Below, in pieces: positions 2,858 to 35,082 of a DNA stretch of 41,096 nt. The DNA is from a virus (Duplodnaviria; Heunggongvirae; Uroviricota; Caudoviricetes). Position 1 is the first letter of the stretch. Each line of letters begins with the position of its first letter. The DNA lies in IMG/VR virus record IMGVR_UViG_2541047851_000007. One strand, written 5' to 3'. Made by a program: the position numbers and the translations under genes. The notes under the pieces are model-generated. The model searched no databases. It was not told where the DNA came from and saw nothing but the letters and a program-made list of their open reading frames with translations.

Positions 2858-4053
2858 GACTCCACCGTTATAACGATATTTTCCGGGGTACAGGACGCAG
2901 ATTCGTTGTATCTGATATCAATGTTTGATGACGACAAAGCCCCCGGGGATTTCCCAATCGTCAGTTCCTGAATATCGTAATAGCGTGCATTCCCGCCACT
3001 CACCACGCCAAGATTCGCCGGTGAGTAAATGCGACTTAAAAGGACCGAATCACCAATCATCAGACTATTGATATAGTCGGAAATAGCCTGCTGGATCTGC
3101 TGCCCTATCTGTGAGGTATAACCCGTAAAAACTTTTAATTTAATCCGGGCATAAACAGGCACATCACTGGAACGCGAGAATTTGATTACATGGGGATTGC
3201 CGTATTTATCCGGAACCGTAACGGATGTTGTACCGTGAGTGGCTGTCCCCTGGCCTTTATTTCCTCTGATAGCCTGAGCAATATCCGTCACATCACCGCC
3301 ATCCACAATTACAGCAACAGAGTGTGGCGGTAACCCGTTACCGTCCTCTGAACCAGTATCGTTTTCATAGAGTTTGTGGCGGGTTACACCGGTAACATTA
3401 GAAACAGCACCATCCAGTGCTTCAAATGGGGTTATTGATGGCAACGCAACACTTTGCGACTGACGGATACGTAACTCCGCATCAGTTTCTGCCGGAGTGC
3501 CTACAGTAGCTGCAGCAGGATTGGTTACCGAAACCCAGCCACGGGTTGGCGTATTAATTTCAGTGATAGTTCCAGCCAGCGCCGCCACTGCACCACTGAC
3601 GGAACATGTTGCGGTCGCCATCACTGTACCATCCACGCCGACCACCACTGAAGCAGGCAAACGCCATATCACATTATTACCATCTTTCACGCTGCCATTA
3701 ATGATGGTTGTTCCGGCAGTTCCTGTAAGAAGCAAATCAACCGTAGAGTTCGTCGCGCCTTTACGTGAAATACCATTTATTTTCACGTTACTGGTCAGTG
3801 CAGCCCCATAGCCGGTTGCCGGTGAAAAACAGTTGTAGACAGTTATCGCAGTATTATTGGCATCATGAATCGCCAGCGCCATCAGAGCCACCATCTGGCC
3901 GTCTTTGCTGTCCGGTTCGAGGTAGGCATCACTGCCATAAATCTGCTGAAAATAGCTAATCAGGGTGCTGAGTATCGTCTGATAATCAGGCGCACTGATC
4001 CCCTCCGCGGTTACCTTTGCAGATAAACCGAGAGAATCAAGGTTCAGAGCCAT
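2854..4053 (-). CDS. Baseplate J-like protein
   Basis: 399 aa; size and position in baseplate cluster. Confidence 0.6.
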   Translation of the reverse strand: MALNLDSLGLSAKVTAEGISAPDYQTILSTLISYFQQIYGSDAYLEPDSKDGQMVALMALAIHDANNTAITVYNCFSPATGYGAALTSNVKINGISRKGATNSTVDLLLTGTAGTTIINGSVKDGNNVIWRLPASVVVGVDGTVMATATCSVSGAVAALAGTITEINTPTRGWVSVTNPAAATVGTPAETDAELRIRQSQSVALPSITPFEALDGAVSNVTGVTRHKLYENDTGSEDGNGLPPHSVAVIVDGGDVTDIAQAIRGNKGQGTATHGTTSVTVPDKYGNPHVIKFSRSSDVPVYARIKLKVFTGYTSQIGQQIQQAISDYINSLMIGDSVLLSRIYSPANLGVVSGGNARYYDIQELTIGKSPGALSSSNIDIRYNESASCTPENIVITVES

Positions 4054-8170: not shown

Positions 8171-8757
8171 TAGCCGCCCCCCAGTAATGACGCCACGTTA
8201 CCCGTGATGCTTTTCAGCAGTGAAGTATCTGGAGGCTTTGTGGTTTTGTTGCCGCTGTTCTGTACCGCCGACGTGCTGGCCCCTTCCTTCATGTTGGTTT
8301 TATCCGCGACGGTAATCTGCTGTGTCCGGGAGATAATGACCTCCCTCAGGGTGAGGACAGCGGACAGGACGTTTTCGGTTGTCTTGTCCGTCGTCACTTC
8401 CAGCGCCCGGATCAACATGTTGCTGTACAGCCGTTTACCGGTTACCACATCGAAGGGGATACGGCTTTCCTGCAGACCCAGTAGCTCCTGATACGTCTGC
8501 TGAGGACTCAGGCCGAGCAGGCTGGTAGCCGTCAGGTTACTGGCAAAATCCAGCAATGCGCCGCCACCGGCGAAACCAACCTCCATCACCACTTCTGACG
8601 GTTTTTTATAGGCATGATCAGCGACAGCGGCCCCGACCTCTACCGGATGCTCTGTTATTTCAAGCATATCTGTATGCTTCTCTGAAATAACAACACTGGG
8701 AACAATCATTCCTATTTTTCTGCTCTGCTGATGAAAAAGTGTAGAGAGAATATCCAC
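8170..8757 (-). CDS. Tail/baseplate-associated hypothetical protein
   Basis: 195 aa; immediately downstream of tape measure gene. Confidence 0.4.
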   Translation of the reverse strand: MDILSTLFHQQSRKIGMIVPSVVISEKHTDMLEITEHPVEVGAAVADHAYKKPSEVVMEVGFAGGGALLDFASNLTATSLLGLSPQQTYQELLGLQESRIPFDVVTGKRLYSNMLIRALEVTTDKTTENVLSAVLTLREVIISRTQQITVADKTNMKEGASTSAVQNSGNKTTKPPDTSLLKSITGNVASLLGGG

Positions 8758-10763
8758 TAACCCACCCTCACCTGATTACTTCGCATGACCTGAGCATTTG
8801 CAGACTGTTGCCGACGTGCAACCTCATTACCGACAGCGTGCGGATCTCCGCCACCGTAAATGTGGTAGGTATTTTGCTGGTTAACCTCTGTCACTTTGCC
8901 ACTAATTCCCGCCACGGCAGCCTTATTAATCAGCTCTCGAGAATAGATATTTCTTCCATTCTCATGCTGGATAATGCTGCTCATCAATGCTGACATGGTT
9001 TGCGGATCACTCATATTCAGGGCAGCCCGGGGATCCACTCCCAGTCGTTGCGATACAGCCCTGATATACGCTGTTGTGTTGTTATTATCAGACGCAGGTG
9101 CCCAGGTAGAGATAATTTTCTCCACACTGTTTATTCCCCGTCCGGCGTACAGCATTAACTGACGAGCAAGAGCCCGTAATCCATCAAAGGCAGTTTCAAA
9201 TCTGGCAAATCGCCCGCCCGGGCGTTCAAGAGAAGCCCCTGCCTGACCAGCAAAATTAAGGTTTCCCGGATTGTTATTCCGTTCTCCTCGTTTCGTAGCC
9301 TGTGCATATTGTTCCGGCTCAGCACCTGGAATATCTGACTGAATATTTGCGCCTTTTACGGTATGAGGATTACGACCAAAATCGGTATCAATGCCAAGCC
9401 AGCGCAATGAATCTCCAATATTTTGTTTCGTGTAATCCCAGGATGACTTCGCACTGGCACCAATATTTTCGCGATCAGAGTACAAATACGCAGCATAAGC
9501 CATCCAGCCTTTTAACCACGGCGGGACCGGCAAACCTGATATTTTCCCGAAAGCCCCCAGAACCCTGGATACCCAGACACCCGCGATGAATGTACCAAGG
9601 ATTTCCAGTGCATTTTGCCAGCCGCCAACACCATCTTTTAGTTCCAGAAGGTGATCACGAAGCCAGGTGATCGCATCCTTCGCTTTATCTATTGCCGGTT
9701 GCCATTTTTCCCAGTCGATAAGACTGTTACCGCCTTCTTTCCATGTTTTGTAGTCTTCCCACAAGAGACCGAGAGCCACGATCAGACCGGTAATCAGCCC
9801 TATAGGTGACATCCAGAAAGTAGAGTTAAGTATCCGCATGGCGACAACCAGACCGCCGATAACCTCTATCAGGGTTTTCGTTTCGGCATCCAGTTTCCCC
9901 CACCACTCGATGATATCTCCGACACCATCGACTATCCGAAATGCTACCCGCCCGACTATCTCACCCAGCCAGAGGATCCCCTTTATGACCTTTGTGATGG
10001 TGACTTCAATTTTGGGAAAATTTTCAATTATCTTTTTGCGCAGGTTATCAATCTGCCCCGCCAGTCCGTCCGCAAGATTCGATCCGATTTTGTCCCGCGC
10101 CATCCTGGCCATTTCACCGAGCGATTTCAGCGAGGTCATAAACCGGTTTGACGATAAGGCAGCCTGATCGGCATTAAATCCGATCGCTTTCACCATTTCT
10201 GAATACTGAGCGCTGAACTGCCCCACTCCGCGACGCATAGCCATCAGGGTATTTTCGTCAATGCCCAGCATCTGCGCATACTGGTTAGCCCGGTAATACG
10301 GCATGCTGCTGAGTTTCTGTCCAACGCCCGTAAAGATAGCAGCCATGTCACGCATGTTACCGCTGGCATCACGGGTCTGTACGCCCAGGCGATTCAGAAA
10401 GCCTTCTGCTCCGGGATTGTTACGAATAAACCGGGAGAGGCTTTCCAGAGAAGATCGCGCAGCGTCCACACTGCCGCCAACCTGCGAAACCGCATAGCCA
10501 ATAGACTGAATTCCCTGGACCGTCGCGCCGGTGCGCTGTGACGCCCAGTAAAGATTATCCAGGCCGGAGGCGATCTTAGCCGTGAAGGCCACCACGGACA
10601 GCGCAGCCCCTTCAACAGCCAGCCCCATTTTGATGACATTTGCAGTTGTACCGGCGAGGACAGAACCGAACTTTTTCGCTCCTGCATCATCCACACTGAA
10701 GCCAAGCGAGACGAGGAAATCTTTAATAGTTTCAGCGTTCATTATCCTCTCTCCATTTCTCAA
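8757..10763 (-). CDS. Tail tape measure protein
   Basis: 668 aa; helical with hydrophobic central segments; position after tail chaperone. Confidence 0.8.
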   Translation of the reverse strand: MRNGERIMNAETIKDFLVSLGFSVDDAGAKKFGSVLAGTTANVIKMGLAVEGAALSVVAFTAKIASGLDNLYWASQRTGATVQGIQSIGYAVSQVGGSVDAARSSLESLSRFIRNNPGAEGFLNRLGVQTRDASGNMRDMAAIFTGVGQKLSSMPYYRANQYAQMLGIDENTLMAMRRGVGQFSAQYSEMVKAIGFNADQAALSSNRFMTSLKSLGEMARMARDKIGSNLADGLAGQIDNLRKKIIENFPKIEVTITKVIKGILWLGEIVGRVAFRIVDGVGDIIEWWGKLDAETKTLIEVIGGLVVAMRILNSTFWMSPIGLITGLIVALGLLWEDYKTWKEGGNSLIDWEKWQPAIDKAKDAITWLRDHLLELKDGVGGWQNALEILGTFIAGVWVSRVLGAFGKISGLPVPPWLKGWMAYAAYLYSDRENIGASAKSSWDYTKQNIGDSLRWLGIDTDFGRNPHTVKGANIQSDIPGAEPEQYAQATKRGERNNNPGNLNFAGQAGASLERPGGRFARFETAFDGLRALARQLMLYAGRGINSVEKIISTWAPASDNNNTTAYIRAVSQRLGVDPRAALNMSDPQTMSALMSSIIQHENGRNIYSRELINKAAVAGISGKVTEVNQQNTYHIYGGGDPHAVGNEVARRQQSANAQVMRSNQVRVG

Positions 10764-23986: not shown

Positions 23987-24409
23987 TTATGCCGCCGGGC
24001 AGCTCCTTCGCAAAGTCCTGATAGCCTTAGGCTTTGACTGAACTGCTTGATCCATTTCCAGAACCACGTCCAGCATAGCCAGGCAGCCGTCGATAAATCC
24101 CTCTGCAGCCTGGAGCCTCTTCAGAACTTGAGTGTGTGATACGCCGAGCTTCACACCCATAGCCCTCACAGGCATCGCCTGGATGTAATGCCACTCAAGG
24201 AGCGTACACAGGTACGGATCTTTTTTCTTCAGGCAGTTCATAGCAGAGCTGATGATCAGACCGTCATTGTCACTGCACTTCAGCCGCCCGGCTTGCGTTG
24301 CAGGTAGCAGATTCTTAAATCCAGCGGAAACAGGTGGATAGTAGACACTGCAACCTTCGCTCGCAGCCCAGCCCCCCCATCGCTCTAAAACCAGTCGAAT
24401 ATCACGCAT
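23987..24409 (-). CDS. Late antiterminator Q (phage 82 / DLP12 QuuD family)
   Basis: 140 aa; N-terminus MRDIRLVLERWGGWAA and C-terminus KRLQAAEGFIDGCLAMLDVVLEMD resemble QuuD as recalled. Confidence 0.8.
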   Translation of the reverse strand: MRDIRLVLERWGGWAASEGCSVYYPPVSAGFKNLLPATQAGRLKCSDNDGLIISSAMNCLKKKDPYLCTLLEWHYIQAMPVRAMGVKLGVSHTQVLKRLQAAEGFIDGCLAMLDVVLEMDQAVQSKPKAIRTLRRSCPAA

Positions 24410-24539
24410 AGCTCTGACCTCTACGTTTTGCTACGAAACAACTTTCCGGGAACCTCGTCTGTTTATCCGTGGGCGTGAATAACGCAGTTCCGATTCGTGT
24501 ATTACGCAGCCCAATATGCAAAAAATTACCAGTTCGCGG

Positions 24540-24718
24540 TGTTACCACCTGTTACCACTGTTACCACCATGTTCTTAACCTTTCCCTGAACGACTTATAT
24601 ATATATATGGGGTTGTTAGTAATAAGGTGGTAACAGTGGTAACAGTGGTAACAAACCTTAAATTTCAATACGTTAAAAAGTTACCACCTTACCTTTGCAG
24701 GTGGTAACAGGTGGTTAC
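24540..24718. repeat. Iteron-type replication origin (inverted iteron sets flanking AT-rich tract)
   Basis: Three direct TGTTACCAC(C) repeats (24540-24570), tatatatatatat (24596-24608), three inverted GGTGGTAACA-type repeats (24627-24654), more copies at 24680-24688 and 24700-24718. Confidence 0.65.
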
Positions 24719-26883
24719 GCCCGCCGCCAAACCTTCATTAACTTGCCTTCAACACGTCGTGTTTCACGCTTATATCCGCAATTTTGCAAAACATTGCTAA
24801 TTCGCATTTCTTCGCGTTTTCCGATGCGGTCAGGTTTTAACCCAATCGCATCTCGCAGGACGTCACTAGCACGTAAAAATTCGCAATTTCGCGGAAGTTC
24901 ATTAGTCATCAGGTCGGGCGTGTCGAGCCATTTCTCTACCGTTTCAAGCCAGGCATCCTTGATGGTGTACTGCTCATGGACACTCGCTGCCAGTTGTTCA
25001 GCCTCACGGAACTGGATACCCCCCAGACGCTGAAACACCTCACGAGCCTCAGCCCAAAGTAAAAGGAGATCTCTTTTTATCGCTTTCACGTCGACTTTCG
25101 ACACTTCCACGGGGAGCCAGCGACGGTTACCAGTCTTGTCCGCAAGGAATTCGTCCTCATTGGTGGTACCAACGAACACCAGGCGACGAGGAAACTGGGT
25201 GGCGAACTCCCGGTATTTCGGGATCCAGTTTTCGTGAGTACGCGTCACAAACGCTTTGATTGACTCCAGCTCTTTGGTATTAAGTCCGCGCAGTTCACCA
25301 ATCTCTGCCACCAGCCGACCACGCATTTTTCGAGCGAGATCATCGTCTTTTTCGGCAAAAGAGATTTCAGTAAAAAACGCAGGATCAGGGCTCAGTGCCT
25401 CCACTCCGGAAGACTTACCGCAGCCCTGCGGACCAACGAGGATCGGCACCATATCCGCTTTGATGCCTGGCTCCAGTACTCGCCCCGCCAACGCGGTCCA
25501 CATGTACATAGACACCGCACGGGTATAAGGCGTGTCGGCGGTACCGAAGTGCGTATGGTAGAAACATTCGATGCGCGGCACGCCATCCCACTCCAGTCCG
25601 TTCAGCCAGGTGATCGCTGAATCGAATGGTTGTTCATCGGCTGCAAGTAACACCACATCGCGAATAAGTTCACGGCCAACAGGTTTAAATCCCCGCTTTT
25701 CCATCGTGATGCGCAGGCGCGCATAATCCGCATCGGTGAATGCCCGCCATTGTCCGGATCCTGCCGGGGCAAACATGATTTCGTCGCGGAACTGGTCAAA
25801 GCGAATATCGATGTCCACAAAATCAGGGCGTACTACTGCTTTGGCTGCGTTGCTGATTGTTGCCTCGATACGCCCCCATTTATCACGCTCGAAAGCAGGC
25901 AGCGGTAAAGGTTCCGCCACTTCGGTGCTGGTCAGATCTTCGAAATCGTCGTTGCGGATCCCGATGGCATTCAGGAAATCTCCGTCATCACGATGCGCGC
26001 AACTGGCATGCAGGCATTTAAAATGCCCCTGCTCAAAGCCTGCGGTTCCCGCAGGAAAATAAACTGTGCTTGTTGGATCGCCTCCGCTACTGTGGCCGTC
26101 TTCAAACGGACAGCGGATATATCGTTCACCGTTTGCGCCATCCAGCAGCGTCCAGCCATTGGCATCAAGATATTCAGCTGTATCATCCGTCGCGCCGGGC
26201 GTGAATGCTGAACGGTCGCGCATCTTCGTGTTGCCCGCTTCGGTGGTTACCGACACAGGGAGTTGTTCAGCCAGGCGCTGCCACAGCGTTTCAAGCTGCT
26301 CACCAGTAATAGCCGGAGGTTCATCCGGCAAACCGCCGTCCCATTCAATACGCGCGCCGCTGCTGTGCGTACCGCAGGCAACGAACTGCTGCCCGTTCGC
26401 CAGCAACTCGATAATGCCCATATCCCCCGCCAGGCGATGGATACGCTTACGGAAATCACCATCAACGGCCAGCAGATACAGACACTTATTACTGTTTGCT
26501 CGCCAGCGTCGCGGCGGCGACTCACCCAGAAGTTGCACAAGTGTTTTGCGAATATCTGCCTGAATGTCTTCATCTTCGCTATCGCAGTCCAGCGCCAGCC
26601 AGCCATGGCCTGTACGCACGCAGATCCCATAGTCCGGTTCGTTCGACCAGCGGGCAAAATCATGCTCAGTTACGACGTGCCCAGTCCAGTCGTTAATTCC
26701 GGTAGCCAGACGGTTGCGGTTATACAGGCTCGGCGTTTTGCCAAGCACTTTGAGTTTGCTGTTCGGTGAAATAATCGCGCCCGGATTGCACACGACCGGT
26801 AGCAGCTGGTCCGTACGACCCAGCACCAGGTCGAAGTGGAACCATTCGTCAGGCGTCGCCCCCCACGGTTTGCTATCAGACAT
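24715..26883 (-). CDS. Replication primase-helicase (P4 alpha-like)
   Basis: 722 aa; Cys/His zinc-binding motif, Walker A GPQGCGKSS, downstream FVGTTNEDEF...TGNRRWLPV; adjacent to iterons. Confidence 0.8.
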   Translation of the reverse strand: MSDSKPWGATPDEWFHFDLVLGRTDQLLPVVCNPGAIISPNSKLKVLGKTPSLYNRNRLATGINDWTGHVVTEHDFARWSNEPDYGICVRTGHGWLALDCDSEDEDIQADIRKTLVQLLGESPPRRWRANSNKCLYLLAVDGDFRKRIHRLAGDMGIIELLANGQQFVACGTHSSGARIEWDGGLPDEPPAITGEQLETLWQRLAEQLPVSVTTEAGNTKMRDRSAFTPGATDDTAEYLDANGWTLLDGANGERYIRCPFEDGHSSGGDPTSTVYFPAGTAGFEQGHFKCLHASCAHRDDGDFLNAIGIRNDDFEDLTSTEVAEPLPLPAFERDKWGRIEATISNAAKAVVRPDFVDIDIRFDQFRDEIMFAPAGSGQWRAFTDADYARLRITMEKRGFKPVGRELIRDVVLLAADEQPFDSAITWLNGLEWDGVPRIECFYHTHFGTADTPYTRAVSMYMWTALAGRVLEPGIKADMVPILVGPQGCGKSSGVEALSPDPAFFTEISFAEKDDDLARKMRGRLVAEIGELRGLNTKELESIKAFVTRTHENWIPKYREFATQFPRRLVFVGTTNEDEFLADKTGNRRWLPVEVSKVDVKAIKRDLLLLWAEAREVFQRLGGIQFREAEQLAASVHEQYTIKDAWLETVEKWLDTPDLMTNELPRNCEFLRASDVLRDAIGLKPDRIGKREEMRISNVLQNCGYKRETRRVEGKLMKVWRRA

Positions 26884-26886
26884 GGG

Positions 26887-27126
26887 TTACACCTTTTGCT
26901 GCTCTGAATTTTCGCCGTTTAATAGCCAGTCAGGATCACATTTAAGAACTTTTGCCAATTCAAGAATGAAGCCAGTACGAGTGGCACGACCGGATTCAAG
27001 GTACTGAACAGACTGCTGGCGCATACCAACCCTTTCAGCCAATGAAGTTTGGGTTATGCCTAAGGCTTTGCGGCGCTCCTTTATACGTGAAGCAAGAGTG
27101 GAACCGGACATAAATAACTTCCTCAC
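26887..27126 (-). CDS. Cro-like HTH regulator
   Basis: 79 aa; XRE-type HTH (LGITQTSLAERVGMRQQSVQYLESG); divergent from CI gene; true start may be internal Met 6. Confidence 0.65.
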   Translation of the reverse strand: MRKLFMSGSTLASRIKERRKALGITQTSLAERVGMRQQSVQYLESGRATRTGFILELAKVLKCDPDWLLNGENSEQQKV

Positions 27127-27220: not shown

Positions 27221-27850
27221 ATGAATCTTGCTATCCGGGCCAAAAAGCGCAGAACAGAACTCAATTTAACTCAGGTCGAAGTTGCTAAACGAGCGGGCAT
27301 AAGCCAGCAGTCAATAGAAGCTATAGAGAACGGCAAAACGCTAAAACCACGTAACCTTCTTGCTTTAGCATCGGCTCTGGAGTGTGATCCTAAGTGGTTA
27401 CTACTCGGGGGTGATGTTGTCACGAATTTCAACTACGGAGCCCGAAGGGTGCCTGTTCTAAGCTATGTACAAGCCGGAGCTTTCACAAGCACTGAACAAC
27501 TTCATGAAGGCGGTGATTTCGAATACATCCTGACAACAACGGAATTATCAGAGCGTTCGTTTGCTCTCCGTATACGCGGAGATTCGATGGAGCCAGAATT
27601 TAAAGAGGGTGACATCGTTATAATTGACACTGACGTATACCCTACCCCTGGCGAATTTGTTGCGGCATGCAATGGTAGCCATGAAGCAACGTTCAAAAAG
27701 TACCGCCCGGTAGGGATTGGCGCTAAAGGTGAGGAAGATTTTGAACTTGTTCCCTTAAACAGCGATTACCCTATTTGCCGCTCCTGGGAAAAACCTATCA
27801 AGATTATTGGAACAATGGTGGAGCATCGCATATTCCGCCGAAAAAGATAA
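27221..27850 (+). CDS. CI-like repressor with LexA-like S24 peptidase domain
   Basis: N-terminal HTH (LTQVEVAKRAGISQQSIEAIENG), Ala-Gly site in YVQAGAF, catalytic GDSMEP; start moved to ATG 27221 after AAGGAG RBS. Confidence 0.85.
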   Translation: MNLAIRAKKRRTELNLTQVEVAKRAGISQQSIEAIENGKTLKPRNLLALASALECDPKWLLLGGDVVTNFNYGARRVPVLSYVQAGAFTSTEQLHEGGDFEYILTTTELSERSFALRIRGDSMEPEFKEGDIVIIDTDVYPTPGEFVAACNGSHEATFKKYRPVGIGAKGEEDFELVPLNSDYPICRSWEKPIKIIGTMVEHRIFRRKR

Positions 27851-30069: not shown

Positions 30070-31371
30070 ATGCCAGACGTTCATGCACAACTTTCTCCAT
30101 CATCAGCGCATCGATGGATGCGCTGCCCAGGAAGTCTGGCGCTGGAGGCCACACAACCGGATAAAGAAACAACTTTTGCAATCGAGGGCACTGCAGCGCA
30201 TGCACTTGCCGAAAAGGTGCTGCGCAACCGCCAGAGCCACCCGGAGCACTATGCAGGTTGCAACGTCGCGATGTTCCTTGGATCCTATCCTCTTGCTGAG
30301 CACCCGGATGATACTTCCGGCCCGCAGGTAGATGAGGAAATGGTCGAAGCCGTTGGTCGTTACGTCGACACTGTTTGGGCGCTGGCGCAGGGCAATGAGC
30401 TGCTGGTCGAGCAGCGTGTCGACTTCTCCCATATAACGGGTGTGGAAGAATCTTTCGGAACTGCCGACAGCATAATCATTGCTGGTAGCGAATTACAAAT
30501 CCACGACCTGAAATATGGCAAAGGCGTCCGCATTGATGCAGAACAAAATGAGCAACTACAACTGTATGCTCTGGGTGCGCTCGAACAATTCAGCATGCTG
30601 TATGACTTTGAGACTGTAAGATTATTTATTCACCAGCCGCGGCTTAACCACGTTTCAGAGTGGGCTCTGACGGTGGAAGAGCTCCAGGCGTTCGGTGAAC
30701 GGGCACAGGAGGCCGCAACCAGTGCGATCCTTGTTCTCAATATTGCTGAATGCGAAGGCATTGAGACACTACCGCTGGAAAACTTCATACCTGGAGAAAA
30801 ACAGTGCCGCTTCTGTAAAGCAAAAGCTATTTGCACTGCCCAGAAAATGCAGCATTTACAAACAGCGGCCAGCGACTTTGAAGATCTGACAAAGCCTGTC
30901 AGCGAAATAATCACCAATGCCAGCGCACGTGTACCTCTGTTAACCATTGAGCAGCTTGCGGAGATCTATAGCCAGACCGACTTTATTGAGTCCTGGCTAA
31001 AGGCAGTACGGGACCGGGTTCACAATGAACTCAATGCCGGACATCCGGTACCGGGGTTTAAACTGGTAACAGGAAAACAAGGTAACCGGGCCTGGAGTGA
31101 TGAAGAGGCAGCTCGCGCACTTCTGAAGGACCAGTTCAGGTACAAAACTGAAGAAGTATTCGACTTTAAACTTATTAGTCCCACAAAAGCCGAAAAACTT
31201 ATCAAAAAGGCCAGTCCGCGCCGTTGGTCAAAAGTCGAGGCACTGATAACACGAGCTGATGGTAAACCCACCGTCGTTCCCGAGTCAGACCCACGCCCCG
31301 CACTCAATATCAACCCTGTAAATGATTTCGACGACGTATCCGACGATACGCTAACCGCAGACCTCATCTGA
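30070..31371 (+). CDS. PD-(D/E)xK nuclease, Cas4/RecB-like
   Basis: 433 aa; IHDLKYGKG (D-x-K), QLQLYALG (QxxxY), Cys cluster [10 protein letters not shown]. Confidence 0.65.
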
Positions 31372-31386
31372 TTTAAGGAAATCCCC

Positions 31387-31935
31387 ATGAAACTGAAGCT
31401 GAACAATGTTCGTCTGGCCTTCCCGTCTCTGTTTGAAGCTAAAACTGTAAACGGCGAAGGCGATCCGCGTTTCTCCGCAGTATTTTTAATGTCTCCCAAA
31501 CACCCACAACTGGAAGAAATCCGTAAAGCTATGAAGCAGGTAGCGAAGGAAAAATGGGGGGAGAAGTGGGAGTCCATTTATAACCAGCTGGAGAAAAAAC
31601 TCAATCTGTGCCTGCATGATGGTGATGAAAAAGCAGAGTATGAAGGCTTTCCCGGCAATTTCTTCCTGAACGCTGCTAACAAAGCGCGCCCAGCTGTTCT
31701 TGATCGCGATCGTTCGCCACTAATTCAGGCTGATGGACGTCCCTATGCAGGGTGCTATGTAAACGCCGTTATCGATATCTGGGCACAGGACAATAATTTC
31801 GGTAAACGCATTAATGCCTCACTCGGCGGAGTCCAGTTCCTGCGAGACGGCGATGCATTCGCTGGCGGCGGAGTGGCAAGCGCTGACGATTTCGACGATA
31901 TCAGCGAAGGTGCTGATGCTGAAGCACTAATTTAA
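31387..31935 (+). CDS. Phage ssDNA-binding-like protein
   Basis: 182 aa; between nuclease and polymerase; acidic C-terminal tail (DDFDDISEGADAEALI). Confidence 0.45.
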   Translation: MKLKLNNVRLAFPSLFEAKTVNGEGDPRFSAVFLMSPKHPQLEEIRKAMKQVAKEKWGEKWESIYNQLEKKLNLCLHDGDEKAEYEGFPGNFFLNAANKARPAVLDRDRSPLIQADGRPYAGCYVNAVIDIWAQDNNFGKRINASLGGVQFLRDGDAFAGGGVASADDFDDISEGADAEALI

Positions 31936-31956
31936 AAATATTCATCCCCCAGCTGC

Positions 31957-32625
31957 GTGCTGGGGGATCTCATGAGGGAAAGAATAATGTCACAGCCCGT
32001 ATTAACTAATTACCTTAAAACTCAAATCATCAATAACGCACTTGAGAAAGCGGGTATCCCCAAACGTAAATCAGCACTACGAGCTGCTCGTGTTGAATGG
32101 GCCGAACGTGTTCGGCTTGCAGCTATCGGGGGCGTAGAGAAAGAAGCTGAAATATTAAAAAATATAAAAAAAATAGAAACACTGGTATCAAAATTCCCCG
32201 AAGCATTAAAAACCGCCAATAACATTATCAGGGAAGAGTGTTACATGTGTCTGAATCTGGCAGGTTCTCGGGTTACCGTCTATTTCAACGGTAACTACCG
32301 AGGATATGAATCAGGGTCACCAGACCATATTCACAAAATCGCGCCGGGGGAATTTACCCTTCTGGCAAATGACCCTCTAGTTACAGAGTTTTACGGGTTT
32401 GATACACTTTATGAGCAGATACAGAGCGATGAGTCAGACATTCGACAGAATGTCAGCGCTGCACTCAGTAAAGTGCGCACAGTTAAGCGCCTGCTGGAAG
32501 AGTGGCCTGAAGCTAAAGAACTTCTGCCAGCCGATGCACCATCTGCTCCGCTTCCGCCAGCTATACGACGCGAAACTCTCAACGAAATGATCGGCCTCCC
32601 TTCTGACGAAGGGGTAGATGCTTAA
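31957..32625 (+). CDS. Hypothetical early protein (likely start at 31987)
   Basis: 222 aa ORF; internal Met with RBS GAGGGAAAG. Confidence 0.45.
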   Translation: MLGDLMRERIMSQPVLTNYLKTQIINNALEKAGIPKRKSALRAARVEWAERVRLAAIGGVEKEAEILKNIKKIETLVSKFPEALKTANNIIREECYMCLNLAGSRVTVYFNGNYRGYESGSPDHIHKIAPGEFTLLANDPLVTEFYGFDTLYEQIQSDESDIRQNVSAALSKVRTVKRLLEEWPEAKELLPADAPSAPLPPAIRRETLNEMIGLPSDEGVDA

Positions 32626-32692
32626 TATTTCTTATAACAAAGGCTGGCTTAAGAAAATAGTTATCCAAACCAGCCTACCGCAATACTAAAAA

Positions 32693-32962
32693 TTAAAATT
32701 CATTGAATTTAAAAAGACATTTCCCTATTGGATTGCCATAGTCTCTACATACCGAAATGCTGTCCCATACAGGCTGAGCCAAACACCCAAGAAAGAACCC
32801 AATAAGCGCAAAAATTATAATTTTGGGAAGAACACGATCCTTAGGACCTTCTTCACGTTCGAGCCATGCGCCACCAGCCCGAACTATTCTCCCTAAAATA
32901 TAAAGAATGGGGAAAGCAATAATACCTATCAATGAAAGTATTCCGATACCAAAGCTAAACAC
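32693..32962 (-). CDS. Small two-helix membrane protein, opposite-strand moron
   Basis: 89 aa; two hydrophobic helices; GTG start with GGAG RBS; very AT-rich; antisense to flanking operon. Confidence 0.45.
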   Translation of the reverse strand: MFSFGIGILSLIGIIAFPILYILGRIVRAGGAWLEREEGPKDRVLPKIIIFALIGFFLGCLAQPVWDSISVCRDYGNPIGKCLFKFNEF

Positions 32963-33018
32963 CGCCGTCTCCTTGTTTATTTACACCTACATAACCATAT
33001 ATCACACAAGGTTATTTT

Positions 33019-35082
33019 ATGTCCAATATACTATGGGGTGACCTAGAAACCTATTGCGAAATCCCTATTACGAACGGTACCCATGCGTATGCCGAAGGCG
33101 TTGAAGTGATGCTGTTCGCATGGGCTATCAACGACGAGCCCGTAAACGTGTGGGATATCACTGCCGGTGGTGGTATTCCACACGGCTTATACGAAGCAAT
33201 CGCAGCCCCTGAAACCCTGCTTTATTTTCATAACTCTCACTTCGACCGCACCGTCCTGCGTTATGCAATGCCGCGCCTGGCACCGCCAGTCGAACGTTGG
33301 CGCGACACAATGGTGCAGGCGCTGGCGCACGGTCTCCCGGGGTCTCTGGGGGAACTCTGCGAAGTACTAGGCGTCCCGCAAGACAAAGCGAAGGACAAAG
33401 AAGGTAAAGCGCTGATCCAGCTGTTCTGTAAGCCACGCCCGAAAAACAGCAAACTGCGCCGGGCCACCAGCAAAACCCACCCGGAAGAATGGCGGCGCTT
33501 TGTTGCTTACGCCGGACTGGATATCGAGGCAATGCGCGAAGTCTATAAACGTCTGCCGAAGTGGAATTATCAGGGGACAGAACTGGCGCTCTGGCATCGT
33601 GATCAGCAGATCAACGACCGGGGCGTCTGCATGGACATTCAACTCGCGCGCGCTGCGATCGAAGCGGTAGACCAGGAGCAAAAGCGCCTGGCAAAGCGTA
33701 CACAGGAAATGACTGATGGCGAAGTGCAGGCAGCAACACAACGGGACGCGTTGATTAAGCACATCGTTGAATCCTACGGTGTGGAGCTACCAGACATGCA
33801 ACGCAGTACTCTGGAACGTCGTATAGCCGACCCCGATTTACCATCTGCCGTGAAAGAACTGCTGGCTATCCGCCTGCAGGCCAGTACTACCAGCACCAGT
33901 AAATACAAGGCACTGATGAAAGGCGTAAGCCACGACGGGCGCTTACGCGGTACGCTACAGTTCTGCGGGGCGTCACGTACCGGTCGTTGGGCCGGACGGC
34001 TATTCCAGCCCCAGAACCTTCCCCGCCCTTCACTAAAACAGGAACAAATAGACGAAGGCATCGAAGCACTGAAAGCCGGATGTGCAGACCTGCTGTTTGA
34101 CAATATCATGGAACTAACCAGTTCAGCGTTACGTGGCTGCATTATCGCGCCAACAGGCAAAAAACTGGTGGTAAGTGACTTGTCGAACATTGAAGGCCGT
34201 ATGCTGGCATGGCTGGCGGGAGAAGAATGGAAACTGAATGCATTCAGAGAGTACGACGCCGGAACGGGTCCGGACTTATATAAACTGGCGTATGCAAAAG
34301 CTTTCGATATTGCACCAGATGATGTTGATAAACACATGCGTCAGATCGGTAAAGTCATGGAACTCGGTCTGGGTTATGGAGGTGGTGTATCGGCTTTCAT
34401 CACTTTTGCTCTGGTTTACGGTCTCGATCTCGACGAGCTGGCGAACGCCGCACTGCCAAACATTCCCCGCGATGTTATCCGCGAGGCGAAAAGCTGGTAC
34501 AACGAATCGGTTAAACGTAAGTCGACCTTTGGCCTGTCCGAGCGTGTATTCATCGCATGTGACTCGCTCAAGCGCCTGTGGCGCAGGGCGCACCCGGCGA
34601 CCTGCGATTTCTGGTACGAACTGGAGCGCACCGTCCGCACTGCAATCGCCACACCGCAAAAAACATTGTATTGCGGTTATCTTAAAATCCGCCGCGATGG
34701 CGCGTGGCTGCGCATACAGCTACCATCCGGACGCGCTGTATGCTACCCCTCTCCGGTTATCGAAAAAGGGAATATCACCTATATGGGTGTTAACTCTTAT
34801 TCGCGTAAATGGCAACGACTCAAAACCTACGGCGGAAAGCTGGTAGAGAACGTCACCCAGGCGGCCGCCCGCGACGTTCTGGCCGGAAACATGCCGCTTA
34901 TCGAAGATGCCGGTTACAGCATTGTGCTGACGGTACACGACGAGGTGATCACCGAAGCACCTGACACAGAAGATTTCAACGATAAAGCGCTTTCCGCGCT
35001 TCTCTCCACTAACCCCGAATGGGCGCCCGATATCCCACTGAACGCTGGCGGTTTTGAGGCGTACCACTACCGTAAGGATTAA
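33019..35082 (+). CDS. Family A DNA polymerase with 3'-5' exonuclease domain
   Basis: 687 aa; exo motif DLET; motif [14 protein letters not shown]; motif [17 protein letters not shown]; motif C LTVHDEV. Confidence 0.85.

What the first reader, a model, noticed from the sequence alone, without database searches (positions are those of the whole stretch)
24540..24718. Iteron-type origin next to the P4-alpha-like primase-helicase
Three direct TGTTACCAC(C) repeats, a 13-bp alternating TA tract, then three or more copies in inverted orientation; the last overlaps the primase-helicase stop codon. The repeat resembles the TGTTCACC octamers bound by P4 alpha (from memory).
Basis: partly seen in the sequence, partly recalled or inferred. 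Interest (0 to 1): 0.45.

Follow-up and report, generated by a model that had tools for sequence, protein, structure and literature searches.

The report
Prophage replication origin with iterons
The repeats are real and are very probably the replication origin of an E. coli prophage, bound by the C-terminal end of the primase-helicase encoded right next to it; this is an ordinary origin of a known type (as in staphylococcal and E. coli pathogenicity-island satellites), not a P4-like one.

Summary
GTTACCAC occurs 9 times in 41 kb (0.8 expected), 8 of them in 24541-24708. Nine iterons lie immediately 3' of a 722-aa gene, and the first overlaps its stop codon. Two inverted triplets flank a 57-bp spacer holding a 13-bp TA tract.

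The protein is not P4-alpha-like (BLASTP E 0.69, different domains). It is a Prim-Pol primase fused to a VapE-type helicase whose closest solved relative is SaPI1 Rep1 (E 7e-34), followed by a predicted winged helix.

SaPI and E. coli PICI origins have this layout: iteron sets in opposite orientation around an AT-rich centre, directly downstream of rep.

In more than 100 related loci, from Enterobacterales to alpha-proteobacteria, an iteron array starts at or soon after the stop codon. All arrays change sequence together while the central spacer stays conserved. Iteron class tracks five residues of the predicted wing: seven predictions held, and the match was near one-to-one in 71 viral contigs.

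Best reading (about 0.8): a self-loading initiator-helicase origin. It is a new member of a known kind, with no experimental proof. Interest is modest; the natural wing-iteron specificity series is the most useful by-product.

The parts
24715..26883 (-). Initiator gene (722 aa). It comprises a Prim-Pol (AEP) primase domain at about aa 5-318, a VapE/SaPI-Rep-type SF3-like helicase at aa 393-657, and a C-terminal winged helix at aa 644-722. It sits 3 nt downstream of the cro-like HTH gene (26887-27111).
   Evidence: Pfam VapE-like_dom at aa 427-639, E 2e-60. PHROG 1156 primase and PHROG 256 helicase. PF09250 Prim-Pol in relatives. PDB sequence hit 7PDS (SaPI1 Rep1 with dsDNA), E 7e-34. Foldseek: 7PDS at E 7e-13, and the pRN1 ORF904 and NrS-1 prim-pol domains. 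Invariant D99, D101, H173 and Walker A G487-K490-S491.
24718..24954 (-). Coding region of the C-terminal DNA-binding domain (aa 644-722). The near-invariant helix 689-701 is KREEMRISNVLQN. The wing is a beta-hairpin, 704-711 and 714-721. The variable 'wing motif' is L715-M716-K717-V718-W719.
   Evidence: AF2 secondary structure H672-680, H689-701, E704-711, E714-721, with pLDDT about 70-84. Alignment conservation. The wing motif tracks the iteron class.
24700..24718 (-). Iterons 1 and 2 in gene orientation. Iteron 1 is GTAACCACC (degenerate) and contains the stop codon TAA. Iteron 2 is TGTTACCACC.
   Evidence: The same position holds iterons in all group-1 relatives.
24680..24689 (+). Iteron 3, inverted relative to iterons 1 and 2. 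With iteron 2 it forms a 10-12 bp hairpin (24680-24708) followed by U5 (24675-24679) on the early transcript. This looks like an intrinsic terminator.
   Evidence: I13. RNA fold centroid -16.3 kcal/mol, MFE -18.6.
24654..24679 (.). AT-rich spacer A (22% G+C), with a partly conserved TTTTAAC..ATTGAAATTTAAGG element. TTTCAATACGTTA at 24663-24675 is one mismatch from the IHF consensus WATCAANNNNTTR.
   Evidence: G+C content; alignment. The IHF resemblance was judged by eye only and not tested.
24626..24653 (-). Iterons 4-6: three tandem TGTTACCAC(C) at 9-bp spacing, pointing toward the central spacer in gene orientation.
24569..24625 (.). Central spacer (about 31% G+C) holding the 13-bp TA tract at 24596-24608, the candidate unwinding element. 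In gene orientation it reads AACCCCATATATATATATAAGTCGTTCAGGGAAAGGTTAAGAAC. It is conserved across relatives with different iterons.
   Evidence: Third least stable 20-mer of the window. Spacer identity is 0.77 between loci of the same iteron class and 0.74 between classes. The exact 22-nt core occurs in 72 viral contigs.
24540..24568 (+). Iterons 7-9: three tandem TGTTACCAC(C) at 10- and 9-bp spacing, inverted relative to iterons 4-6.
   Evidence: Together with iterons 4-6 they form an imperfect palindrome; as single-stranded DNA it folds at -29.5 kcal/mol, z = -5.7.
24517..24529 (-). Conserved GTAATTTTTTGCA element just after the last iteron array. Function unknown.
   Evidence: Present as GTAAnTTTWTTGCA in most group-1 loci. 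The scan found no sigma-70 promoter here.

Best explanation
Window 24540-24718 is the replication origin of a temperate myovirus-type prophage of E. coli. It is used by the 722-aa protein encoded immediately upstream.

Shown:
- Nine 9-10-bp iterons start inside the stop codon.
- Two inverted triplets flank a 57-bp spacer that is AT-rich and contains a TA tract.
- The protein is a Prim-Pol primase fused to a helicase homologous to SaPI1 Rep1, followed by a predicted winged helix.
- In relatives, all iteron arrays change in concert with five wing residues, while the spacer does not change.

Inferred mechanism:
- After induction, the cro-initiator-Q early transcript produces the initiator.
- Its winged-helix C-terminal domains bind the iterons. 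The near-invariant helix 689-701 probably reads the constant CCA(C/A)C part, and wing residues 715-719 the variable 5' part.
- Two hexamers assemble on the opposed triplets, as proposed for SaPI Rep, and melt the TA tract.
- The helicase loads itself, the Prim-Pol domain primes, and the phage's own family-A DNA polymerase extends.
- The extra iteron trio at the stop codon may serve as a nucleation or auxiliary site. Its hairpin plus U5 may also attenuate read-through into the Q antiterminator gene.
For: - Repeat cluster far beyond chance, and the only one in the window.
- TA tract is among the least stable DNA of the 41 kb.
- Homology to an experimentally characterised initiator-helicase: 7PDS SaPI1 Rep1, sequence E 7e-34 and fold E 7e-13 over about 470 columns.
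- The SaPI origin is defined as 6-12 short iterons immediately downstream of rep, with an AT-rich centre and at least 2 iterons on each side pointing in opposite directions, bound by the C-terminal winged helix (PMC9371898; PMC7581432). E. coli PICIs have the same layout, and the EcCICFT073 pri-rep-ori segment drives plasmid replication (PMC6092414).
- The window after the stop codon is the most repeat-dense in 29 of 34 related loci. The architecture persists down to 30% protein identity in alpha-proteobacteria.
- I predicted the iteron from the C-terminal tail for 7 loci before looking, and all 7 held. These include a 93%-identical protein with a different wing and a different iteron, and a 71%-identical protein with the same wing and the same iteron.
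- Two further E. coli prophages and phage YeP4 fit the pattern.
- 71 viral contigs share the identical spacer core and show a near one-to-one wing-motif to iteron mapping in 8 classes.
- Iteron segments are 0.89-1.00 identical within a class and 0.60-0.66 between classes, while the interleaved spacer is 0.77 and 0.74.
- The rep-plus-iteron block is exchanged as a cassette: phage vB_EcoM-611R5 has the same Q gene but a different initiator with its own iterons.
Against: - There is no experimental evidence for binding, melting or initiation in this phage family.
- The wing codons and the iterons are physically adjacent, so part of their association could be linkage rather than function. The conserved interleaved spacer argues against this but does not exclude it.
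- One exception to the mapping: Yersinia locus L032 has wing VQRVW with TGTTACCAC, while 7 viral contigs with VQRVW have TGTAACCAC.
- The AF2 model is only moderately confident (mean pLDDT 69.6, helicase core below 50).
- GC skew gives no independent sign of an origin at this position.
- Many of the 100+ loci are close relatives, so they are not independent observations.
Confidence: 0.8

Rival explanations
1. The repeats are binding sites for the initiator, but they act mainly as a cis-regulatory or auxiliary element and initiation takes place elsewhere. They could be a crr-like enhancer, or a roadblock/terminator that controls read-through into the Q antiterminator gene.
For: In P4 the repeat block directly after the alpha stop codon is crr, not the annotated ori. 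The array lies between the early replication gene and Q. Iterons 2 and 3 form a hairpin of -16 to -18.6 kcal/mol followed by U5 on the early transcript.
Against: There is no second iteron cluster anywhere in the 41 kb. The inverted triplets around an easily melted TA tract match the experimentally defined SaPI/PICI origins of homologous initiators. The U-run after the hairpin is missing in several relatives (L026, L034), so a terminator role cannot be the conserved function.
Confidence: 0.1
2. The element works at the RNA or single-strand level only, as a large stem-loop (terminator, attenuator or structured RNA), and the 'iterons' are just the arms of the hairpin.
For: The long imperfect palindrome folds well (DNA -29.5 kcal/mol, z = -5.7). 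Rfam gives weak hairpin-type (miRNA precursor) matches. The pRN1 origin was described as a 100-nt stem-loop downstream of a prim-pol/SF3/winged-helix gene (PMC4234260).
Against: All Rfam matches are far below their gathering scores. The arms are tandem 9-bp units rather than arbitrary complementary sequence. The middle copy of one arm is often degenerate and non-complementary (L004, L026, L030). Unit sequence tracks a protein motif. No U-run directly follows the large stem.
Confidence: 0.05
3. The cluster is a chance or simple-sequence repeat, or a small palindromic mobile element unrelated to the gene.
For: None beyond its palindromic shape.
Against: None of 100 shuffles reached more than 3 copies, against 9 observed. 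The element is always positioned at the stop codon of homologues in many genera.
Confidence: 0.01

Closest known systems
SaPI (staphylococcal pathogenicity island) Pri/Rep-ori replicon, e.g. SaPI1 Rep1 and SaPI5 PriRep5
   Same: The helicase domain is homologous (7PDS, sequence E 7e-34, fold E 7e-13). The origin starts immediately 3' of the initiator gene. Short iterons lie in two opposed sets around an AT-rich centre. The DNA reader is a C-terminal winged helix. The primase is fused to the helicase, as in PriRep5 (PMC9371898).
   Different: The host element is a complete temperate myovirus-type prophage, not a satellite. Iterons are 9-10 bp rather than 5-6. There is an extra iteron trio overlapping the stop codon. 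The primase domain is of the Prim-Pol (AEP) type. The host is Gram-negative.
E. coli PICI replicons (EcCICFT073 pri-rep-ori; Fillol-Salom et al. 2018, PMC6092414)
   Same: Same host species. The origin lies immediately 3' of pri-rep. [quoted passage not shown] Function was shown on a temperature-sensitive plasmid.
   Different: Those elements are satellites with unidirectional transcription, and their Pri-Rep is distantly P4-alpha-like. This one is a cI/cro/Q-type prophage with a Prim-Pol-VapE initiator. [quoted passage not shown]
Satellite phage P4 alpha protein with ori and crr
   Same: Same logic: one polypeptide carries primase, SF3-type helicase and a C-terminal origin-binding domain, and it binds octamer repeats present in both orientations. 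A repeat block (crr) starts about 46 bp after the alpha stop codon.
   Different: There is no detectable sequence similarity (E 0.69). The primase is of a different type (Zn-ribbon + Toprim) and the C-terminal domain differs (Pox_D5). P4 needs two repeat regions 4.5 kb apart, whereas there is only one cluster here. The repeat is TGTTCACC there and TGTTACCAC(C) here.
pRN1 ORF904-type replicons (Prim-Pol + SF3 helicase + winged helix, origin downstream of the gene; PMC4234260)
   Same: The N-terminal domain has the fold of the ORF904 prim-pol domain (1RNI, 3M1M). An essential stem-loop or palindrome of about 100 nt lies directly downstream of the replication gene. Berkner et al. noted similar stem-loops 3' of such proteins in bacteriophages.
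   Different: pRN1 is an archaeal plasmid. Its origin was defined as a stem-loop without recognised iterons, and its helicase belongs to a different family.
Lambdoid O-protein/ori-lambda iteron origins
   Same: A temperate-phage early-right operon in which initiator and iterons co-vary between phages as an exchangeable specificity module (established knowledge; not tested here).
   Different: The lambda iterons lie inside the O gene. O is not a helicase and recruits host DnaB through P. There is no homology.

Membership tests
SaPI/PICI-type Rep-ori replicon | The origin lies immediately 3' of the initiator (rep) gene | tested here: met
   The first iteron contains the stop codon (24710-24718). 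The whole array lies within 178 bp after it.
SaPI/PICI-type Rep-ori replicon | Two sets of short iterons, at least 2 per side, in opposite orientation, flanking an AT-rich region | tested here: met
   There are 3 + 3 inverted iterons around a 57-bp spacer of about 31% G+C with a 13-bp TA tract. The definition is taken from PMC9371898 and PMC6092414.
SaPI/PICI-type Rep-ori replicon | The initiator is a Rep-type helicase with a C-terminal winged-helix domain | tested here: met
   7PDS Rep1: sequence E 7e-34, Foldseek E 7e-13. The predicted helix-helix-helix plus beta-hairpin fold spans aa 644-721. The model has moderate confidence only.
SaPI/PICI-type Rep-ori replicon | The C-terminal domain binds the iterons specifically, and rep-ori supports autonomous replication | not testable with these tools
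   Only indirect evidence: co-variation of wing motif and iteron in more than 100 loci.
SaPI/PICI-type Rep-ori replicon | The element is a phage-inducible chromosomal island (a satellite lacking most structural genes) | tested here: not met
   The prophage is about 37 kb and carries terminase, portal, capsid, sheath, baseplate, lysis, cI/cro/Q and integrase genes. The origin works like a PICI origin, but the element is not a PICI.
P4 alpha / ori-crr system | Alpha-type protein: Zn-ribbon primase + Toprim + D5_N + SF3 helicase + Pox_D5 C-terminal domain | tested here: not met
   BLASTP E 0.69. The Pfam architectures differ. The only overlap is a sub-threshold DUF5906 match (24 bits against a cut-off of 27.6).
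P4 alpha / ori-crr system | Type 1 octamer TGTTCACC repeats in two separate regions (ori and crr, 4.5 kb apart) | tested here: not met
   The repeat here is TGTTACCAC(C), in a single cluster. The P4 layout comes from the annotated record.
pRN1 ORF904-type replicon | Prim-Pol + SF3-type helicase + winged-helix protein, with a large stem-loop or palindrome directly downstream of its gene | tested here: met
   Prim-Pol fold matches 1RNI, 3M1M and 6A9W. The palindrome folds at -29.5 kcal/mol, z = -5.7. Whether the two replicons share ancestry beyond the Prim-Pol domain was not tested.
Classical iteron plasmids (RepA/pi/TrfA type) | Tandem direct iterons of 17-22 bp beside a DUE and DnaA boxes, with a non-helicase Rep initiator that recruits DnaB | tested here: not met
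   The iterons are 9-10 bp and arranged in inverted sets. The initiator is itself a helicase. DnaA-box-like matches in the window are at chance level (75 against 69 expected).

The most novel reading that the evidence does not exclude
This replicon family carries a natural allelic series of at least 11 initiator-iteron specificities built on one almost invariant origin scaffold.

- Five residues on the second strand of the winged-helix wing (aa 715-719 here) appear to set the variable bases of a 9-bp iteron.
- Examples: LMKVW with TGTTACCAC, KCKVW with TGGAACCAC, QIRVW with CTAGACCAC, QQRVF with CTAGACAAC, MTRIF with TGTACCAAC, KMRIF with TGTCCCAAC.
- A terminal W goes with C at iteron position 7, and a terminal F with A.

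If the wing is the direct reader, this is a compact recognition code that could be reprogrammed. The diversity would then reflect selection for replicons that do not cross-activate, between co-resident prophages or against satellites that hijack the origin. It would also mean that the 'PICI-specific' origin design is really a general phage design.
Probability: 0.5. Interest if true: 0.5.

Novelty: new member of a known kind. Interest (0 to 1): 0.33.

Why it matters
- It gives an unannotated 300-bp intergenic region a concrete, testable function in a prophage family found in about 100-140 of 5,426 complete E. coli genomes and in many other Enterobacterales.
- It corrects the family assignment of the initiator from P4-alpha-like to Prim-Pol + SaPI-Rep-like.
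- It shows that the origin layout described as a hallmark of PICI satellites also occurs in complete temperate phages.
- The wing-iteron series could be used to design orthogonal replicons and to study how self-loading helicases recognise origins.

Tried and rejected
- P4 homology was rejected: BLASTP E 0.69, different Pfam architecture, and P4 has a bipartite ori and crr.
- Rfam gave only sub-threshold miRNA-precursor hairpin matches caused by the palindrome.
- The sigma-70 promoter and terminator scan found nothing in 24410-24714. It missed the iteron 2/3 hairpin, which has a bulged stem; I found that by folding.
- DnaA boxes: 1-mismatch matches to TTWTNCACA are at chance level in the window (75 against 69 expected), so the TTATTCACG at 24474-24482 is not evidence.
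- GC skew: cumulative skew flattens near 28-29 kb, at the divergent cI/cro promoters, not at 24.6 kb. It is confounded by transcription direction and is uninformative.
- NCBIfam gave no match for the initiator.
- The original SaPI origin papers (PMC1964853, PMC3804134) are not held. I used later open-access descriptions of them instead.
- No paper was found that describes this prophage family's origin.
- The repeat-density test failed in 5 of 34 loci. In three, the cause was unrelated tandem repeats (27-nt or 6-nt units) elsewhere in the locus. In two, the array starts about 90-110 nt further downstream.

Full report
**1. The observation**

On the + strand there are:
- three TGTTACCAC(C) copies at 24540-24568;
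- a 13-nt alternating TA tract at 24596-24608;
- three inverted copies at 24626-24653;
- another inverted copy at 24700-24709;
- a degenerate inverted copy, GGTGGTTAC at 24710-24718, which contains the stop codon (24715-24717) of the 722-aa ORF 24715..26883(-).

Exact GTTACCAC occurs 9 times in 41,096 bp against 0.82 expected. No shuffle exceeded 3, and 8 of the 9 copies lie within 168 bp. Allowing one mismatch reveals no second cluster. A sliding 8-mer count shows this is the only repeat-dense spot in the window. By nearest-neighbour free energy, the TA tract is the third least stable 20-mer of the window.

**2. Context**

The window is 100% identical to a prophage in E. coli RIVM_C029670, integrated next to yfhL. 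It is a complete temperate myovirus-type prophage with sheath, baseplate, capsid, portal, terminase and lysis genes.

Around the repeats the order is: LexA/S24-type repressor (27221-27850, +), cro-like HTH gene (26887-27111, -), the 722-aa gene, the repeats, then the Q antiterminator (23987-24409, -). On the other side of the repressor lie DUF2800, DUF2815, Nmad5, a family-A DNA polymerase, methyltransferases, an SNF2 protein and the integrase.

**3. The neighbouring protein is not P4-alpha-like**

- Pfam finds a VapE-like domain at aa 427-639.
- PHROGs find a primase family at aa 5-318 and a helicase family at aa 281-714.
- Relatives score PF09250 Prim-Pol.
- The only solved sequence relative is 7PDS (E 7e-34, aa 393-657). 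This is SaPI1 Rep1 bound to DNA.
- An AlphaFold model (mean pLDDT 69.6, helicase core poorly resolved) matches 7PDS over about 470 columns (E 7e-13). Its N-terminal domain matches the prim-pol domains of pRN1 ORF904 and phage NrS-1.
- The last 80 residues are predicted as three helices plus a beta-hairpin, which is a winged helix.
- P4 alpha shows no significant similarity (E 0.69). Its architecture is different: Zn-ribbon, Toprim, D5_N, DUF5906, Pox_D5.
- In the annotated P4 genome, the repeat block next to the alpha stop codon is crr. The annotated ori is 4.5 kb away.

**4. What homologous systems do**

[quoted passage not shown] It has 6-12 iterons of 5-6 nt, an AT-rich region at the centre, and at least two iterons on each side pointing in opposite directions. 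The C-terminal winged helix recognises it, and no loader is needed (PMC9371898; PMC7581432). [quoted passage not shown] For pRN1, an essential 100-nt stem-loop lies downstream of the prim-pol/SF3/winged-helix gene, and similar structures were noted 3' of such genes in phages (PMC4234260). The anatomy in this window matches these definitions point for point.

**5. Comparative test**

I collected homologues with their flanks from several sources:
- 24 loci from species-representative genomes;
- 11 contigs encoding chosen protein variants;
- two phage records;
- two further E. coli prophages.

Among intact homologues an iteron array starts at, or soon after, the stop codon (up to about 110 nt in L007/L018), and the repeat sequence differs by lineage. 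In 29 of 34 loci, the 280 bp after the stop codon is the most repeat-dense window of the locus. The exceptions are explained by unrelated tandem repeats or by an offset array.

The layout in the closest group is constant. In gene orientation it reads:
- two iterons at or over the stop codon;
- about 9-12 nt, then one inverted iteron;
- about 26-30 nt of AT-rich DNA;
- three tandem iterons;
- a spacer of about 55 nt, AACCCCATATATATATATAAGTCG..GGGAAAGGTTAGAA;
- three inverted iterons.

The same design is seen in alpha-proteobacterial homologues at 30% identity, with GGGTCA(G/C) iterons. It is also seen in a second protein group that shares only the Prim-Pol domain and has a DUF5906-type helicase.

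**6. Co-variation with the protein**

The protein alignment is conserved up to the helix KREEMRISNVLQN (aa 689-701) and then varies in the wing. Before inspecting the DNA, I predicted the iteron from the tail for seven loci, and all seven predictions held. Two cases are the most telling:
- P0029 is 93% identical overall but has wing QIRVW, and its iteron is CTAGACCAC.
- P0095 is 71% identical, with a divergent Prim-Pol domain, but has wing LMKVW, and its iteron is TGTTACCAC.

Phage YeP4 and two more E. coli prophages also fit.

An exact search for the 22-nt spacer core found 72 viral contigs. In the 71 that could be analysed, the five residues after the wing's Gly-Lys map onto the iteron almost one to one:

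| Wing motif | Iteron | Contigs |
|---|---|---|
| K[CSR]K[VLI]W | TGGAACCAC | 23 |
| MTRIF | TGTACCAAC | 17 |
| VQRVW | TGTAACCAC | 7 |
| QIRVW | CTAGACCAC | 6 |
| KMRIF | TGTCCCAAC | 5 |
| QQRVF | CTAGACAAC | 5 |
| VLKVW | TGTATCCAC | 5 |
| [LS]MKVW | TGTTACCAC | 3 |

A terminal W always goes with C at iteron position 7, and a terminal F with A. Two of the five VLKVW contigs also carry TGTAACCAC copies.

Iteron segments are 0.89-1.00 identical within a class and 0.60-0.66 between classes. The spacer that lies between the arrays is equally conserved in both comparisons, 0.77 and 0.74. Concerted change of three separate arrays around an unchanged spacer is what selection by a shared trans-acting reader predicts. 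Simple linkage to the neighbouring wing codons does not predict it.

Caveats:
- The wing codons lie only about 10-200 bp from the iterons.
- Many loci are close relatives.
- One locus breaks the mapping: L032 has wing VQRVW with TGTTACCAC.

**7. Mechanism proposed**

Shown: the anatomy, the homology and the co-variation.

Inferred:
- The initiator binds the iterons through its winged helix.
- Two hexamers assemble on the opposed triplets, as proposed for SaPI Rep.
- The TA tract melts and the helicase loads itself.
- The fused Prim-Pol domain primes, and the phage polymerase extends.

The iteron trio at the stop codon may act as a cis nucleation or auxiliary site. On the transcript, iterons 2 and 3 form a hairpin of -16 to -18.6 kcal/mol followed by U5. 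This could attenuate read-through into Q. The U-run is not conserved in all relatives, so I treat this as a secondary and uncertain role.

**8. Rivals**

- A purely regulatory or crr-like role is possible but unlikely, because there is no second cluster.
- A purely RNA or stem-loop role is unlikely. The arms are tandem units with degenerate, non-complementary middle copies, they track a protein motif, and the Rfam matches are sub-threshold hairpin artefacts.
- Chance is excluded.

**9. Novelty and verdict**

This is a new member of a known kind: a SaPI/PICI-type (and, by analogy, pRN1-type) initiator-helicase origin, here in a complete enterobacterial prophage. It is not a PICI, since the structural genes are present, and not a P4-type system.

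I found no paper describing this family's origin. The design is well documented elsewhere, so a specialist would not be surprised. Two points are mildly new. [quoted passage not shown] Second, there is an unusually clean natural series of wing-iteron specificities.

Confidence that this is the origin is about 0.8. Interest is 0.33.

Noticed in passing
L033 (about 3650-3678), L002, L004/L026, L035, L040, L041; compare window 24710-24718: In several relatives the initiator ORF reads through the first iterons, so its extra C-terminal residues are simply translated iterons. In L033, GTG AAA CCA CCT GTA ACC ACC TAA gives VKPPVTT*; other tails are EPPGTT and KTSTT. In the window the stop codon itself lies inside iteron 1.
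   Followed up: partly
window 24675-24708 (- strand): Iterons 2 and 3 form a 10-12 bp hairpin followed directly by UUUUU on the early transcript (centroid -16.3 kcal/mol). It looks like an intrinsic terminator between the initiator gene and Q. The consensus scan missed it. The U-run is absent in some relatives.
   Followed up: partly
window 24517-24529 (- strand GTAATTTTTTGCA); same position in L002-L004 and L026-L036: A conserved GTAAnTTTWTTGCA element follows the last iteron array in most relatives, whatever their iteron class. No sigma-70 promoter was called there, and its function is unknown.
   Followed up: no
window about 24434; L038 (phage vB_EcoM-611R5) 3001-5900: There is a mosaic joint about 25 nt upstream of Q. 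Phage vB_EcoM-611R5 has a 100% identical Q gene but a different initiator (same Prim-Pol N-terminus, DUF5906-type helicase, different C-terminus). Its own (A/C)CGTCACCT iterons lie downstream in a comparable inverted arrangement. Initiator and origin are exchanged together as one cassette.
   Followed up: partly
window 24463-24482; L040 and L041, about 70 nt after the last iteron: Relatives carry a perfect DnaA box, TTATCCACA, in an inverted arrangement (TTATCCACACCCACGGATAA) between the origin and Q. The window has only TTATTCACG. One-mismatch DnaA-box matches are at chance frequency in the window, so this is unproven.
   Followed up: partly
window 24663-24675 (+): TTTCAATACGTTA in AT-rich spacer A is one mismatch from the IHF consensus WATCAANNNNTTR. 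A similar TTCAA-N4-TTA is present in several relatives. This was judged by eye only.
   Followed up: no
L004 3-403 and L009 830-1234 (related loci, upstream of the repressor region); L006 40-137: There are long perfect tandem repeats elsewhere in related prophages: 27-nt units x 15 copies with different consensus sequences in two genera, and TCTGGC x 16. They are unrelated to the origin. The 27-nt arrays are probably coding 9-aa repeats.
   Followed up: no
window about 8757-10742 (L001 4358-6343): RefSeq annotates the lytic transglycosylase (tape-measure-like) gene of the identical prophage as two pseudogene fragments separated by about 360 nt. The prophage may therefore be defective in tail assembly.
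   Followed up: no
window about 30070-35082 (+) versus 24715-26883 (-): Replication functions are split between the two divergent early operons. DUF2800 nuclease, DUF2815, Nmad5 and a family-A DNA polymerase lie on the repressor side. The initiator and origin lie on the cro side.
   Followed up: no
E. coli genome hits to window 24410-24720: Across E. coli prophages the initiator gene is about 93% identical, but the 300-bp origin region is only 76-80% identical. The cause is iteron-class replacement, for example TGTACCAAC in FDAARGOS_144 and TGGAACCAC in ECE170.
   Followed up: yes
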